From: a virus
Taxonomy: Duplodnaviria; Heunggongvirae; Uroviricota; Caudoviricetes
Length of the DNA: 64,000 nucleotides
IMG/VR virus record: IMGVR_UViG_2843020057_000001
Location: 10,516 to 74,515 of that record
Reading direction: 5' to 3' (one strand)
The notes beneath the pieces were generated by a model that saw only the letters and a program-made list of their open reading frames with translations, did not search any database and was not told where the DNA came from. Below are positions 1,003 to 59,684 of the stretch, piece after piece; positions within the stretch are counted from its first letter, which is position 1; every line of letters starts with the position of its first letter. Both the position numbers and the translations under genes were made by a program.

Positions 1003-1035
1003 ATAGTGACAACATATGAGAGAGAGGTTTTGAGA

Positions 1036-1599
1036 ATGTCACGTGAAGTAAAGCGCCGGAAGCGCAAAATTATTGACCCCTCAACTGAAATAGTAGTTGC
1101 AAATAATACTTATGGTACTTTTGCTTACGAATCAAAGAATGGGGCACTTTCAATTGTTTTAGAAGAGAACGGTGATGAAGAATACATCACATACTCTGAG
1201 GCAAGAAAGCTAAAAAAGTATTTTGAAAATATGTCTCTGTTAATAATTGACGTTAACTCTGACGAAGATATTTCAATTATGGATGTTGTTCGCGGATTGC
1301 GATTAACAGATGTTTATAGTTCATACCTTAAATTTGTAGAAGGTTTTAATGAAGACGAATTTGATGAGGTGGAAGCATTGTATTCAGATGCTCTTGCTGA
1401 CTTTGTAGTTGATTCAGATATAGACGAATTTAAGGAAGTACTTAAAACTCCACTAAGAAATGCGATCGTTATGACAACGGTTGAGATGTATAAACAACGA
1501 CGCTTAACAAATCGTGACAAACAAGACCTTGTTAATAACAGAGATGAGGATTTCTGGGCGGATGTAGATGTGTCCGTTAAAGCGGTAGAAGGTCACTAA
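1036..1599 (+). CDS. Hypothetical head-associated protein
   Basis: ORF 1006..1599; ATG 1036 follows a GAGAGG RBS; acidic; directly after capsid. Confidence 0.6.
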   Translation: MSREVKRRKRKIIDPSTEIVVANNTYGTFAYESKNGALSIVLEENGDEEYITYSEARKLKKYFENMSLLIIDVNSDEDISIMDVVRGLRLTDVYSSYLKFVEGFNEDEFDEVEALYSDALADFVVDSDIDEFKEVLKTPLRNAIVMTTVEMYKQRRLTNRDKQDLVNNRDEDFWADVDVSVKAVEGH

Positions 1600-34840: not shown

Positions 34841-36142
34841 TTGTTCAAGAAGTTTCTAAAGAGGATGTTAATGGTAGCAGCAACTATCATTATGGTTGCC
34901 CCTGTATTATCAGGGGTCGCAAGTGCAGATGGTCGATCGTATGGGCCTGATCTCTCAAAATATCAAGGTGCATATACAAATAAGCCATATGCACGTGATC
35001 AATTCGCAATTTCACAAGTTGGTGGATACGCAAATGGTTATTTCTATGACCAATGGACATATCCAACACAAATTAGTTCAGGTATTGCTAATGGTTTGAG
35101 AATGCACACTTATATTTGGTATCAAGTTGGTGGAAATGCTCAATTGGGGAAGCAGGTTGTAGATCATTTTCTACCAAAGATCCAAGCGCCTAAGGGGTCG
35201 ATCATTGCATTAGATTATGAAGACGGAGCATCTTGGGACAAGAACGCAAATACGGAAGCCATTTTAGCAGGTATGCGTGAAATTAAGGCGGCAGGATACG
35301 TTCCAATGTATTACAGTTATAAGCCGTACACCTTGGCTCACGTTGACTATAATCGTATTATTGCTGAATTCCCTAACTCTGGATGGATTGCAGCATACCC
35401 AGATTACAATGTTCGTACAGAACCATACTGGGGTGTATTCCCTTCACTTCCAGGAATTAGTATCTACCAATTTACTAGCACGTATCGTGCTGGCGGTTTA
35501 GACGGTAATATTTCATTAGCACCTAATGGTCGTGACATTACTATGAGCGGTTACACTAATGGAAATTCACAGAAACCAAAGACCGAAACTCCTGCAACGG
35601 AACAAGGTAAGCAAATTCATAAGGATACTCATAACTACACCGTAAAGCCAAATGATAGCTGGTGGGCAATAGCAAATCGTTATGGCATGGAAATGAACGC
35701 TTTAGCACAACTGAATGGTAAGACCATCAATGATGTAATTCACCCAGGTCAAGTTATTCGTGTTGCTGATAAAGGAGATGGTCAATCAGTTTCAAACAAG
35801 GTTAACACCACCCCCGCACAACCAAAGCCAGCTCAACCTAGTGCACAATATTACACAGTACGCTACGGCGATTCATTCTGGTCCATTGCAAACAAATATG
35901 GAATGAATATGTACACACTTGCTGCTAATAATGGATTAAGCATTAACTCAGTTATTTACCCTGGGCAACGCTTAAAGGTGAGTGGTAACGCACAAGCAAC
36001 TCAAAAGGTTCACTATGTTAAATATGGTGAAACGCTAAGCGGAATTGCTGCACAGCTCGGAACTACTGTATCTCATTTACAAGCAGTAAACGGAATTCGA
36101 AACGCTAACTATATCTGGGTCGGCCAAAGAATCGCTGCATAA
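34841..36142 (+). CDS. Endolysin: signal peptide + GH25 muramidase + 3 LysM
   Basis: AAAGGAG RBS; Sec signal ending VASA|D; DLSKYQG and ALDYEDG GH25 motifs; three LysM repeats. Confidence 0.92.
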   Translation: MFKKFLKRMLMVAATIIMVAPVLSGVASADGRSYGPDLSKYQGAYTNKPYARDQFAISQVGGYANGYFYDQWTYPTQISSGIANGLRMHTYIWYQVGGNAQLGKQVVDHFLPKIQAPKGSIIALDYEDGASWDKNANTEAILAGMREIKAAGYVPMYYSYKPYTLAHVDYNRIIAEFPNSGWIAAYPDYNVRTEPYWGVFPSLPGISIYQFTSTYRAGGLDGNISLAPNGRDITMSGYTNGNSQKPKTETPATEQGKQIHKDTHNYTVKPNDSWWAIANRYGMEMNALAQLNGKTINDVIHPGQVIRVADKGDGQSVSNKVNTTPAQPKPAQPSAQYYTVRYGDSFWSIANKYGMNMYTLAANNGLSINSVIYPGQRLKVSGNAQATQKVHYVKYGETLSGIAAQLGTTVSHLQAVNGIRNANYIWVGQRIAA

Positions 36143-36180
36143 CATATTCGTTTGTAAAACATGGGTTTTATAAATTTTTT

Positions 36181-36215
36181 AGAGTGGATAAACTTAATGT
36201 TGATCCACTCTTTTT
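36181..36215 (+). terminator. Intrinsic terminator after the endolysin
   Basis: AGAGTGGAT...ATCCACTCT followed by a T run. Confidence 0.75.
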
Positions 36216-36248
36216 CATAAAGGTATTTATATTAGATGCTTTTTAATG

Positions 36249-36283
36249 GAACAGCTATTATAAGGAGCTGTTCTTTTCTTTTT
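36249..36283 (+). terminator. Second intrinsic terminator
   Basis: GAACAGCT...AGCTGTTC followed by TTTTCTTTTT. Confidence 0.65.
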
Positions 36284-36399
36284 AAAACAAAAAGAGCGTT
36301 TTCCAACGCCCACGTTATACCGGTACGGTTTAAGTAGTCAACTGAAACCAATATACACTCGGTATATCTTTCTTATCTTGATATACACATTTTAGCACA
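36281..36399 (-). ncRNA. Candidate structured small RNA, copy 1 of a tandem pair
   Basis: Minus-strand TGcTAAAAT extended -10 near 36389-36397; stem-loops; GC hairpin plus U tract; 42-nt core 36309-36350. Confidence 0.55.
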
Positions 36400-36520
36400 T
36401 TTAAAACAAAAAAGAGCGCCTATCAGGGCGCCCCACGTTAAACCAGTACGGTCTAAGTAACCAACTGAGACCATTTTGCACATGGCTTATTTCTTTATTC
36501 TAATCGTGCCTAATAAGCAC
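36400..36520 (-). ncRNA. Candidate structured small RNA, copy 2 of a tandem pair
   Basis: Core 36432-36473 is 36/42 identical to copy 1 with a compensatory pair; own hairpin plus U tract. Confidence 0.55.
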
Positions 36521-36676
36521 GTTAAAAAGCTAAGTAAAAAAGCTATGAAGCAACTACGTAAGTGGCTGCAAGTCTAGCCTTTGGGCTATACTTTTAGTAT
36601 TTTCAGCGGTGGTATTTATTCGCTATCGCTGTTTTATTTTTCTGTTGTTAACAGTTTTTAATTTTAAAATTAGATT

Positions 36677-37955
36677 GATGAATTATAGAATGAAGTTAGC
36701 CACCCAGTTGGTGGTAAATAAAAAACGCCATTCGGCGTGACATCAGGTATCATATTAAGTGAACCAAACCTATATGAAAGGATGTCCGTCAAATGACGCA
36801 CTTAAATGATACCATGTCTACTAGTTTATTGACTACTCATAAAAAGAATGCTCATCTTACTAAAGAAGAACGTGTGATGATTGCGACTTTAAAGTCGCAA
36901 GGACTTTCCAATCGCGCAATTGGTCGCCAATTAGGAGTTAATCATCAAACAATTAATAACGAGCTCAACCGTGGTACGGTCCGCCAACTTCGTCGTCAAA
37001 AATCTAATGGTAAGATTTACGAATATTCTTACTACATCTATAGTTATGAAGCTGGTCAGGCCACATATCTTGAACATCACCGCCATTCTGGTCGTCGTCG
37101 CTTATATTATTCTTCAAAGCAATTTTTACGATTAGCTGATCAGCTAATGCTTGGTGAGTTTGACGACCACCATTACTCCCCACAAGCGGTTATTTATAAG
37201 GCTCGAGATTTAATGAATGATGGTACCCTGATCCCAAAGTCGGTTGTAACTTTATATCAATGGATTAATGAGGGTGTGCTTCGTACGTCCAATTTAGACC
37301 TCTTTGAAAAACCTAAACGTAAGCATCATCGAACTCATCCGCAAGCTAAAAGGTGCTTGGGGCCTAATATTGCTCAACGACCTCAAACTGCGGACCAACG
37401 GTCCGAAATTGGCCATTGGGAACTAGATACAGTTCAGGGACAGAAAAACGGTAATGACAGTGTTGTACTAGTAATGACTGATCGCCTTTCACGAGTTAAT
37501 ATCACGAGTAAAATTGCTGGTAAAACTGCGCATGCAGTAAATCAGTTCTTTATAAATTTACGCCAGAAAATGGGCACAGATGCTTACTATCGCATCTTTA
37601 AGACAATAACCTCTGACAACGGTTCAGAATTTAGTGAGTTAACACAAGTTCACGATCATGTTTTCTATGCTGATCCGTATTCCCCTTGGGAACGTGGATC
37701 CAATGAGATCAATAACCGGTTTCTTCGCAAGGAGATTACCAAAGGTGAAGCTATAAATAACTATAGTAGTGCTCAGATCATAGCGACTAATGATTGGATG
37801 AATTACTATCCACGAGCTATGTTTAATGGACATTCGTCAATGGATATCTATCGTAAGGCCTTCTACCAAGAGATATCACAGCTCCATCAACCAATAATCA
37901 ATTGGTCAGTATTATTTATTTGAGTCCAGTGGCTAACTTATTCTTGAAATTTAGG
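36677..37955 (+). mobile_element. IS30-family insertion sequence
   Basis: Imperfect terminal IRs (..AGAATGAAGTTAGCCAC / GTGGCTAACTTATTCTT..); flanked by a 12-bp direct repeat TAAAATTAGATT at 36665-36676 and 37956-37967; exact ends uncertain by 1-2 bp. Confidence 0.88.
36793..37923 (+). CDS. IS30-family transposase
   Basis: N-terminal HTH; DDE motifs WELDTV, TSDNGSEF, ERGSNE. Confidence 0.95.
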   Translation: MTHLNDTMSTSLLTTHKKNAHLTKEERVMIATLKSQGLSNRAIGRQLGVNHQTINNELNRGTVRQLRRQKSNGKIYEYSYYIYSYEAGQATYLEHHRHSGRRRLYYSSKQFLRLADQLMLGEFDDHHYSPQAVIYKARDLMNDGTLIPKSVVTLYQWINEGVLRTSNLDLFEKPKRKHHRTHPQAKRCLGPNIAQRPQTADQRSEIGHWELDTVQGQKNGNDSVVLVMTDRLSRVNITSKIAGKTAHAVNQFFINLRQKMGTDAYYRIFKTITSDNGSEFSELTQVHDHVFYADPYSPWERGSNEINNRFLRKEITKGEAINNYSSAQIIATNDWMNYYPRAMFNGHSSMDIYRKAFYQEISQLHQPIINWSVLFI

Positions 37956-59488: not shown

Positions 59489-59594
59489 ATCTGTATGATA
59501 TAATACTAAAGCAGGCAAGTTTTAAGGACGGTGGCCGACATCGTTTTGGAGGTGGTTCGCATGAACTTCACCATTAAGAAAGGATTATCGGCAC

Positions 59595-59684
59595 ATGAGC
59601 GCCTACCAAGCACTTATGTTAATGTTGGCATTTGCGACATTTATTATTGCATTGCCAACCTTTATTTTCACATTTTGTGCATAA
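59595..59684 (+). CDS. Type I toxin (holin-like toxin/TxpA-like), 29 aa
   Basis: TG-a-TATAAT at 59496-59504; AGAAAGGA SD; MSAYQALMLMLAFATFIIALPTFIFTFCA*; 5'-3' UTR complementarity; absent from the ORF track. Confidence 0.75.
   Translation: MSAYQALMLMLAFATFIIALPTFIFTFCA

What the first reader, a model, noticed from the sequence alone, without database searches (positions are those of the whole stretch)
36281..36520. Tandem pair of ~120-nt covarying structured RNAs behind the endolysin
Seen: two adjacent units with a 42-nt core that is 36/42 identical. Read on the minus strand, each unit has a variable 5' hairpin, a small CCRW-GUGYAWA-WUGG hairpin, a stem GGUUU/AAACC versus GGUCU/AGACC (compensatory change), a loop CAGU that could pair with downstream ACUG/ACCG as a pseudoknot, and a GC hairpin with different but paired sequence plus a U tract. 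A G-U pair works only on the minus strand. Copy 1 has a TGcTAAAAT extended -10. No conserved ORF. I do not recognise a riboswitch, ribozyme, CRISPR repeat or ToxI unit. Inference: an unassigned phage ncRNA family (antitoxin, protein decoy or anti-defence RNA) expressed in lysogeny.
Basis: partly seen in the sequence, partly recalled or inferred. Interest (0 to 1): 0.72.

Follow-up and report, generated by a model that had tools for sequence, protein, structure and literature searches.

The report
Leftover antitoxin small RNAs behind endolysin
The two repeated units are copies of the small antisense RNA "antidote" of an uncatalogued toxin-antitoxin family common in Limosilactobacillus, but here the toxin gene has lost its start and promoter, so the locus is mostly a remnant.

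Summary
The repeat is real: 36/42 identical, against at most 26 in shuffles. Both units are minus-strand, terminator-ended small RNAs. They belong to an sRNA family found in 39 of 71 Limosilactobacillus genomes and have no Rfam match.

In complete loci this sRNA lies back-to-back with a 24-40-aa hydrophobic/basic peptide gene (consensus MxHWCxxILIVPNKHVK). That gene has no Pfam, NCBIfam, PHROG or PDB match.
- The sRNA's variable 5' tail forms a 16-20-bp duplex with codons 3-10 of its own toxin mRNA in 17 of 17 loci.
- The conserved hairpin loop co-varies with a loop in the toxin 5'UTR.
So this is a type I toxin-antitoxin family with a divergent, trans-pairing layout.

In the window, the 33-codon plus-strand ORF at 36476-36577 is the toxin remnant. 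A deletion between the two direct repeats removed its start codon, ribosome site, 5'UTR and both promoters, and fused it to unit 2. Phage LR2 shows the same deletion. Unit 1 keeps its own extended -10 but has no target in this genome.

The scan flagged relatives of this module before, on other DNA.

The parts
36284..36383 (-). sRNA unit 1 (about 100 nt): an antitoxin-type small RNA with its own promoter and no cognate toxin in this genome
   Evidence: nhmmer hit 57.8 bits. CM R1 hit 76.7 bits, E 1.9e-12. MFE -28.1 kcal/mol, z -3.4. The tail has no complement elsewhere in the genome.
36389..36397 (-). Extended -10 box TGcTAAAAT of unit 1, directly after the unit 2 terminator
   Evidence: Sequence. 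A TAnAAT box sits in the same register in 32 of 41 family units, 26 of them with the TG extension. The same terminator-promoter junction is seen in the plasmid arrays.
36327..36349 (-). Unit 1 P2 hairpin GGUUU-CAGUUGACUACUU-AAACC
   Evidence: The stem is 100% paired in 36 homologues with 3 covarying pairs. RNAalifold predicts it as the consensus.
36294..36311 (-). Unit 1 intrinsic terminator stem (T-run down to 36284)
   Evidence: Terminator scan.
36403..36500 (-). sRNA unit 2: body intact, native promoter deleted, 5' tail continuous with the antisense of the toxin remnant
   Evidence: nhmmer hit 70.5 bits. CM hit 88.1 bits. Alignment A2 shows the 126-nt gap relative to complete loci. MFE -32.4 kcal/mol, z -4.7.
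36450..36472 (-). Unit 2 P2 hairpin GGUCU-CAGUUGGUUACUU-AGACC
36413..36434 (-). Unit 2 intrinsic terminator stem (T-run down to 36403)
   Evidence: Terminator scan.
36497..36525 (-). Promoter-like site TTAACG-17-TAGAAT inside the toxin remnant; the only candidate driver of unit 2
   Evidence: Consensus scan, 9 of 12 matches. Function not shown.
36476..36577 (+). Toxin ORF remnant (33 codons from TTG, 31 from ATG 36482): ..MAYFFILIVPNKHVKKLSKKAMKQLRKWLQV. It has no Shine-Dalgarno sequence, no 5'UTR and no promoter.
   Evidence: ORF list. Aligns with 21 SD-bearing homologues. No SD-linked start was found. No plus-strand promoter-like site lies upstream.
36604..36641 (+). Intrinsic terminator of the toxin mRNA, conserved in all paralogues
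   Evidence: Terminator scan, 10-bp stem plus T-run. Conserved block in alignment A2.

Best explanation
The two units are paralogous genes for the antitoxin small RNA of a type I toxin-antitoxin family that is widespread in Limosilactobacillus and not yet catalogued.

How an intact module works:
- A 24-40-aa peptide gene (M-x-HWC, a hydrophobic run, invariant Pro, then a basic tail) and a roughly 95-nt sRNA gene are transcribed divergently from back-to-back extended -10 promoters.
- The toxin Shine-Dalgarno sequence sits in a small hairpin.
- The sRNA hairpin loop contacts a matching loop in the toxin 5'UTR.
- The sRNA's variable 5' tail then pairs with the mRNA from the start codon to about +30.
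- This pairing is inferred to block ribosome binding and/or mark the duplex for cleavage.

What happened in this window:
- Recombination between the two direct repeats that create this complementarity deleted the toxin start codon, SD hairpin, 5'UTR and both promoters.
- That left a silent toxin remnant (36476-36577, plus strand) fused to sRNA unit 2.
- Unit 1 is a second sRNA gene of the same array. It has its own promoter and a different tail, and no target in this genome.

Shown by computation: family membership, the covarying stem, tail-to-toxin complementarity, and the deletion.
Inferred: toxicity of the peptide, repression by the sRNA, and expression of units 1 and 2.
For: Family and structure
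- The sRNA family is present in 39 of 71 genomes of the genus. The fetched loci hold 41 distinct units, and 32 of them have a TAnAAT -10 box in register.
- The P2 stem is 100% paired with UA, AU and CG exchanges.

Toxin partner
- A divergent small ORF with a strong SD occurs in 21 distinct forms.
- In 17 of 17 complete loci the sRNA tail pairs with its own toxin mRNA at about +7 to +30. The mean is -22.1 kcal/mol against -10.7 for non-cognate pairs, and no non-cognate pair beats the cognate.
- A longer tail window extends the duplex over the start codon, at -21 to -33 kcal/mol.
- The SD lies in a hairpin in 17 of 17 loci. TGrTACAAT sits on the toxin strand 58-62 nt upstream of the start in 13 of 17.
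- The variable bases of the sRNA loop co-vary with a motif at a fixed 5'UTR position: CG with CG, GA with TC, GG with CC, GCTA with TAGC.

The deletion
- Alignment A2 shows that LR2 equals a complete locus minus 126 nt bounded by the direct repeat ATCAATATTACTATGC. Window unit 2 has the same gap.
- The four fused forms (window unit 2, LR2/G041, L035, L037) lack an SD-linked start and a -10 box.

This genome
- It also holds two complete paralogues, at C1:856 kb and C2:134 kb.
Against:
- Toxicity and repression are untested for every member of the family.
- The toxin matches no known toxin family, so 'toxin' rests on architecture and peptide composition.
- Loop-UTR pairing is short (5-9 nt), is missing in 2-3 of 17 loci, and a plain duplex-energy test did not separate cognate from non-cognate pairs.
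- Fused forms recur in four sequence variants, and sRNA-only arrays recur on plasmids. Some of these 'remnants' may therefore be maintained for a purpose.
- The genomes compared are related, so the counts are not independent.
Confidence: 0.75

Rival explanations
1. The tandem sRNAs are a working 'antidote array'. In this reading, mobile elements keep several individually promoted antitoxin sRNAs with different 5' tails. These would neutralise toxins of rival plasmids or prophages, or of host loci (anti-addiction or anti-abortive infection). Units 1 and 2 would then be functional cargo of this phage-like replicon, not debris.
For: - sRNA-only arrays with 19-35-nt gaps recur in several places. 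Each unit has its own TGtTATAAT box and a different tail: 3 units on NZ_CP030090.1, 4 on NZ_CP065541.1, 2 in G009, and 2 here.
- The terminator-promoter junction TTTTAAATGTGYTAWAAT is shared between arrays.
- Unit 1 has an intact promoter, stem and terminator.
- The fused LR2 sRNA has the same tail as a complete locus elsewhere in the same host genome, G041.
Against: - The unit 1 tail has no target in its own genome. The only close match in 71 genus genomes is a chance hit inside an unrelated gene.
- Its best toxin match in the data set is imperfect, at -20.1 kcal/mol with an internal loop.
- The three extra sRNAs on NZ_CP065541.1 have no toxin partner on that plasmid.
- Preferential loss of toxin genes would produce the same pattern.
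Confidence: 0.15
2. The fused form is itself a working, cis-encoded type I module. The toxin would be transcribed on the plus strand through the antisense of unit 2 and translated from TTG 36476 or ATG 36482. Unit 2 would then be a perfectly complementary antisense RNA over the leader and start, as in symE/symR or ldr/rdl.
For: - The ORF is open and its C-terminal part is conserved.
- The toxin terminator is intact.
- The unit 2 terminator has no T-run on the plus strand, so read-through is possible.
- The fused layout occurs in four sequence variants.
Against: - There is no SD before either start codon.
- No plus-strand promoter-like site lies in 36281-36480.
- Alignment A2 shows the layout is a complete locus minus the segment that carries the start, SD, 5'UTR and promoters.
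- The N-terminal HWC motif is replaced by sRNA-derived codons.
Confidence: 0.05
3. The units are an unrelated structured non-coding RNA (ribozyme, riboswitch-like element or protein decoy) or small minus-strand protein genes. The link to the peptide gene would be coincidental.
For: - The hairpin loop (CAGUUnnUUACUU) and the CCGGUGUGCAAAAU block are highly conserved.
- Minus-strand ORFs of 36 and 39 codons exist.
- Both units fold better than shuffles.
Against: - The ATG of the minus-strand ORF is not conserved: AATTGG or AATCGG replaces AAATGG in 9 of 36 units, and no SD precedes it.
- Compensatory stem changes would alter the residues such an ORF encodes.
- Perfect tail-toxin co-variation in 17 of 17 loci is not expected for an unrelated RNA.
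- No Rfam ribozyme or riboswitch matches.
Confidence: 0.03

Closest known systems
par (Fst / RNA I-RNA II) of Enterococcus faecalis pAD1, and Lpt/RNA II of Lacticaseibacillus plasmids
   Same: - Type I toxin-antitoxin logic in Lactobacillales.
- A peptide of about 30 aa with a conserved Pro in the hydrophobic segment.
- The SD is sequestered in a 5' stem-loop.
- DNA direct repeats, transcribed in opposite directions, give the sRNA its complementarity to the translation-initiation region.
- A separate loop contact probably starts the pairing.
(PMC7472228 and PMC5608710.)
   Different: - The genes here are divergent and back-to-back, not convergent.
- There is no shared bidirectional terminator.
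- There is no PXXXG motif: the sequence after Pro is N/S-K/G-H/L-V/I.
- The Pfam Fst_toxin model finds no match.
- The sRNA is about 95 nt and has a different fold.
Divergent, non-overlapping type I systems of E. coli: tisB/istR-1, shoB/ohsC, zorO/orzO, dinQ/agrB
   Same: - The sRNA gene lies 5' of the toxin gene and divergent from it, without overlap.
- The sRNA acts in trans through a short (16-20 nt) complementary stretch.
- Extra homologous sRNA copies exist (agrA next to agrB).
(PMC4147584 and PMC8594479.)
   Different: - Those families are Gram-negative, and their sRNAs pair within the long 5'UTR rather than the coding sequence (PMC4147584).
- Here the main duplex covers the start codon and codons 3-10.
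- The sequences and peptides are unrelated.
Prophage-borne type I systems of Bacillus subtilis (txpA/RatA, bsrG/SR4, yonT/SR6)
   Same: - Small membrane-type toxin plus antisense RNA, carried as accessory cargo on prophages.
- The present family sits behind the lysin gene in LR2, in G041 and in this window.
   Different: - Those antitoxins are convergent and overlap the toxin 3' end (PMC8594479).
- None of their Rfam models match here.
ToxI (type III antitoxin RNA repeats)
   Same: Tandemly repeated antitoxin RNA units on mobile elements.
   Different: - ToxI is an array of 36-nt repeats cut from one transcript by ToxN, which it binds as a protein partner (established knowledge).
- Here each unit of about 100 nt has its own promoter and terminator, and it pairs with an mRNA.
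- The two neighbouring genes are a lysin and an IS30-type transposase.

Membership tests
Type I toxin-antitoxin system (generic) | Small (under 60 aa) hydrophobic peptide gene next to the RNA gene | tested here: met
   There are 21 distinct SD-bearing peptides of 24-40 aa in paralogous and orthologous loci. In the window itself only a start-less remnant remains, at 36476-36577.
Type I toxin-antitoxin system (generic) | Antisense RNA with an extended complementarity to the toxin mRNA | tested here: met
   The duplex is 16-20 bp in 17 of 17 complete loci and is cognate-specific. Window unit 2 is physically antisense to the remnant. Unit 1 has no target.
Type I toxin-antitoxin system (generic) | The peptide is toxic when over-produced, and the RNA prevents its synthesis | not testable with these tools
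   This needs expression experiments. No paper on this peptide motif was found.
Fst/Ldr (par) family | The toxin matches the Fst signature (Pfam PF13955) | tested here: not met
   None of the 22 peptides hit the model at E<=10. The model finds no match in the whole genome in six frames. A profile of the peptides finds no PDB chain at all, so neither of the two solved Fst-family toxins, Fst and PepA1 (PMC7472228), is matched.
Fst/Ldr (par) family | P/D/S/T-XXX-G(C) motif in the transmembrane segment (PMC7472228) | tested here: not met
   Pro is invariant, but the residue four positions later is V, I or L (alignment A3).
Fst/Ldr (par) family | Convergent promoters with a shared bidirectional terminator | tested here: not met
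   The promoters are divergent and back-to-back, and each gene has its own terminator.
Fst/Ldr (par) family | Direct repeats give complementarity at the translation-initiation region, and the SD is sequestered in a 5' stem-loop | tested here: met
Rfam antitoxin and sRNA families (13 type I antitoxin families plus all others) | Covariance-model match at or near the gathering score | tested here: not met
   The gathering-threshold search gave only rli28, at 59489-59670. The permissive search of 36000-36900 gave 21.9 bits at best, far below every gathering score.
tisB/istR-1-type divergent systems | Divergent, non-overlapping sRNA that pairs within the toxin 5'UTR | tested here: inconclusive
   The layout is met. 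However, the main duplex lies in the coding region at +7 to +30, and only a short loop contact lies in the 5'UTR.
ToxI / type III | Short repeats processed from one transcript, next to a ToxN-type endoribonuclease gene | tested here: not met
   Each unit has its own -10 box and terminator. The two flanking genes are GH25/LysM and HTH_38/rve.

The most novel reading that the evidence does not exclude
Limosilactobacillus plasmids, prophages and phage-plasmids may carry arrays of 2-4 individually promoted antitoxin sRNAs. The units share one scaffold but have different 5' recognition tails. Such an array could act as a multi-specific antidote cassette that disarms the type I toxins of competing mobile elements or of host abortive-infection loci. 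The pair in this window would be one such cassette rather than debris.
Probability: 0.15. Interest if true: 0.7.

Novelty: new variant of a known kind. Interest (0 to 1): 0.45.

Why it matters
**What the finding adds**
- It turns an 'orphan structured RNA' into a recognisable system.
- It exposes a type I toxin-antitoxin family that current resources do not label:
  - no Rfam, Pfam, NCBIfam or PHROG model matches;
  - the public name is 'hypothetical protein';
  - plasmid gene tables mostly list no feature at these loci; one L. reuteri toxin gene is listed as 'hypothetical protein'.
- The family is nevertheless multi-copy in a probiotic genus and also sits on Ligilactobacillus salivarius plasmids.

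**Why the layout is unusual**
- The sRNA gene is divergent and does not overlap the toxin gene, yet it pairs with the start codon and early codons.
- Published surveys (PMC8594479) list this kind of layout only for Gram-negative families, and those pair within the 5'UTR.

**Practical uses**
- The family could serve plasmid stabilisation or counter-selection in lactobacilli.
- The tail-toxin pairs are a natural set of orthogonal RNA regulators.

**Limits**
- This particular locus is a decayed copy, so by itself it is ordinary.
- The recurrent antitoxin-only arrays are the part that could be new biology.

Tried and rejected
**Searches with no useful result**
- Rfam at gathering and permissive thresholds: nothing relevant.
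- Pfam, NCBIfam, PHROGs, PDB sequence profile and the ESM Atlas on the peptides: no hits.
- Pfam Fst_toxin against the whole genome: none.
The 42-aa paralogue returned only 'hypothetical protein' entries.
- A literature search for the peptide motifs found nothing relevant. No paper linking type I systems to L. reuteri described this module.

**Readings tested and dropped**
- My own long-range P1 stem (UAUACCG/CGGUAUA versus UAAGCCA/UGGUUUA). It appears in both MFE folds and is 83% paired, but it has almost no covariation, so it stays unproven.
- A minus-strand coding reading: no conserved ATG and no SD. My first frame check was one base off and is not used.

**Tests that did not discriminate**
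- Loop-to-mRNA duplex energies did not separate cognate from non-cognate pairs. A position-specific comparison did show co-variation.
- Searches for a target of the unit 1 tail gave only a chance match, in its own genome and in 71 genus genomes.
- The covariance model found the sRNA scaffold in 5 of 5 sampled Limosilactobacillus genomes. It found none in 145 genomes of 41 other Lactobacillaceae genera, under stricter filters and on a sample only.

Full report
**Observation**

Window 36281-36520 holds two head-to-tail units.
- 36309-36378 and 36432-36501 are 74% identical over 70 nt, with spacing 123.
- The best 42-nt stretch is 36/42 identical. In 200 shuffles the mean was 20.3 and the maximum 26.
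- On the minus strand each unit ends in an intrinsic terminator, at 36311-36294 and 36434-36413.
- Unit 1 is preceded by TGcTAAAAT at 36397-36389.
- Both units fold better than shuffles, with z -3.4 and -4.7.
- Rfam has no match at gathering or permissive thresholds.
- The upstream gene, 34841-36142, is a GH25 + 3xLysM lysin. The downstream gene, 36793-37923, is an IS30-type transposase with HTH_38 and rve domains.

**Organism and replicon**

- The genome has three contigs. The window lies on the 138.5-kb contig C2.
- The only phage record with similarity is Lactobacillus phage LR2 of L. reuteri 6475, again beside its lysin.
- Plasmid matches are to Limosilactobacillus reuteri and Ligilactobacillus salivarius.

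**A widespread sRNA family**

- A 400-nt query matched 39 of 71 genomes of the genus, often several times per genome.
- nhmmer found 45 units in the fetched loci, 41 of them distinct.
- The typical unit, in order:
  - a TGnTATAAT promoter (32 of 41 units have a -10 box in register, 26 with TG);
  - a variable 5' tail of about 20 nt;
  - the conserved block CCGGUGUGCAAAAU;
  - a hairpin GGUUU-CAGUUGAUUACUU-AAACC;
  - GUACCGGU;
  - a terminator (alignment A1).
- The hairpin stem is paired in 100% of 36 sequences. Three of its five pairs show double-sided changes among UA, AU and CG. RNAalifold predicts it as the only consensus helix.
- A covariance model found the scaffold in 5 of 5 sampled Limosilactobacillus genomes and in none of 145 genomes from 41 other genera of the family. 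That search was a sample and used stricter filters.

**The partner gene**

- In most loci a small ORF lies upstream on the opposite strand. There are 21 distinct peptides of 24-40 aa with consensus MxHWCxxILIVPNKHVKxLIKK. Pro is invariant and the C-terminus is basic.
- Each ORF has a strong GGAGGTG-type SD. The SD folds into a hairpin directly before the start codon in 17 of 17 loci, with different stem sequences.
- In 13 of 17 loci an extended -10 box, TGrTACAAT, lies on the toxin strand 58-62 nt upstream of the start. The two genes are therefore divergent, back-to-back and non-overlapping.
- The peptides match no Pfam, NCBIfam or PHROG family and no PDB chain.
- The Pfam Fst_toxin model finds nothing in the genome.
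- Public records call them 'hypothetical protein', and most plasmid records list no feature at the locus. The toxin gene on two L. reuteri plasmids is listed as 'hypothetical protein'.

**Evidence for antisense control**

- The sRNA tail differs between loci but is always complementary to its own toxin mRNA.
  - In 17 of 17 complete loci the duplex has 16-20 bp and lies at about +7 to +30 from the start.
  - The mean energy is -22.1 kcal/mol, against -10.7 for non-cognate pairs. No non-cognate pair beats the cognate.
  - With a longer window the pairing runs, with an internal loop, over the start codon, at -21 to -33 kcal/mol.
- A second contact is likely. The variable bases of the sRNA loop co-vary with a motif at a fixed position in the toxin 5'UTR. 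The pairs are GUUCGUUAC with GUAACGAAC, UGAUUA with UAAUCA, UGGUUA with UAACCA, and UUGCUA with UAGCAA. The match is 5-9 nt in most loci.
- From established knowledge of type I systems (PMC7472228, PMC4147584), the inferred mechanism is a loop-loop contact followed by tail pairing. This would occlude the ribosome site and/or create a substrate for a double-strand RNase. Neither toxicity nor repression has been tested.

**What sits in the window**

- The plus-strand ORF 36476-36577 encodes ..MAYFFILIVPNKHVKKLSKKAMKQLRKWLQV. This aligns with the family from the hydrophobic run onward but lacks the N-terminal HWC motif and any SD-linked start.
- Its terminator, 36604-36631, is conserved.
- Alignment A2 shows how this arose. 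Phage LR2 equals a complete locus (L012 or L018) minus 126 nt bounded by the direct repeat ATCAATATTACTATGC, that is, toxin codons versus sRNA tail. Window unit 2 has the same gap.
- The lost segment carries the toxin start, SD hairpin, 5'UTR and both promoters.
- Fused forms occur in four sequence variants: window unit 2, LR2/G041, L035 and L037. These are among the nine units without a strict -10 box.
- No plus-strand promoter-like site precedes the remnant. The only candidate driver of unit 2 is a 9-of-12 site inside the remnant, at 36525-36497.
- Unit 1 keeps its promoter, hairpin and terminator.
  - Its tail has no complement in this genome.
  - In the genus representatives the only close match is a chance hit inside an unrelated gene.
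  - Its best toxin match in the data set is imperfect, at -20.1 kcal/mol.
- The genome also holds two complete modules, at C1:856 kb and C2:134 kb.

**Arrays of antitoxin genes**

- L. reuteri plasmids NZ_CP030090.1 and NZ_CP065541.1 carry one complete module beside the ParM gene. It is followed directly by two or three further sRNA genes.
- Each further gene has its own TGtTATAAT box and a different tail, with gaps of 19-32 nt.
- The extra sRNAs of NZ_CP065541.1 have no toxin partner on that plasmid.
- G009 has a similar pair, with a 35-nt gap.
- The junction between the terminator T-run and the next -10 box matches the junction between window units 2 and 1.
- The tandem arrangement is therefore a recurrent architecture. 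Whether the extra sRNAs are kept for cross-protection or are what remains after toxin loss is open.

**Wider distribution**

L. salivarius plasmid pLMP1046 has the same divergent layout and a homologous toxin, MKLVIVFILVPNKHVKKLIKKAIKCLLNWLDD. Its sRNA tail forms a 16-bp duplex that includes two G-U pairs, but the sRNA body is different.

**Comparison with known systems**

- The logic resembles par/Fst and Lpt: direct repeats provide the complementarity, the SD is sequestered, and binding is two-step.
- Three defining Fst features fail here: the Pfam model, the PXXXG motif, and convergent genes with a shared terminator.
[quoted passage not shown] Those are Gram-negative, and their sRNAs pair in the 5'UTR (PMC4147584).
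- The T1TAdb survey lists all Gram-positive families with the antisense RNA on the 3' side of the toxin (PMC8594479).
- I therefore file this as a new variant of a known kind (type I toxin-antitoxin), and this locus as a decayed member of it.

**Relation to earlier scan notes**

- A sequence look-up showed that this scan had already flagged look-alike stretches in this genome and in two other genomes.
- One of those notes proposes the same toxin/divergent-sRNA reading.
- Those notes were used as leads. The claims above rest on the calls cited.

**Limits**

- There is no functional test.
- Only one genome per species was searched, and the genomes are related.
- E-values from the covariance model are rough.

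Noticed in passing
L067 (NZ_CP030090.1) 1400-1760; L066 (NZ_CP065541.1) 1380-1840: Arrays of 3-4 antitoxin-type sRNA genes beside ParM. Each has its own TGtTATAAT promoter and a different 5' tail. Only the first has a toxin partner nearby.
   Followed up: partly
L065 (L. salivarius pLMP1046) 340-720: The same divergent toxin/sRNA layout with a homologous toxin (…FILVPNKHVKK…) but an unrelated sRNA body. The toxin family therefore reaches beyond the genus, while the sRNA scaffold was not found outside it in the genomes sampled.
   Followed up: partly
window 36793-37923 (+): An IS30-type transposase gene (HTH_38 + rve) lies about 150 bp beyond the toxin terminator. A minus-strand terminator-like hairpin lies in between, at 36738-36725.
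   Followed up: no
window 59489-59670 (+): Rfam match to Listeria sRNA rli28 at 68.8 bits (gathering score 45). Earlier scan notes link this to another type I toxin-antitoxin-like locus.
   Followed up: no
L064 (G041:C1:1155500-1160500) 1900-2800; L063 700-820: One host genome carries three copies: the LR2-type fused copy behind a lysin, a complete module about 680 nt further on, and elsewhere a complete module whose sRNA tail is identical to that of the fused copy.
   Followed up: partly
window 36181-36211 and 36249-36285 (+): Two successive hairpin plus T-run elements follow the lysin stop codon. They look like plus-strand terminators that close the lysis module before the remnant locus.
   Followed up: no
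L003 (G000:C1:855490-858569) 1033-1284 (-): An 83-codon ORF overlaps the toxin terminator region of the chromosomal module (…ISAVAFICYRCF…). Similar reading frames appear in other loci. This is probably an artefact of the conserved terminator hairpin.
   Followed up: no
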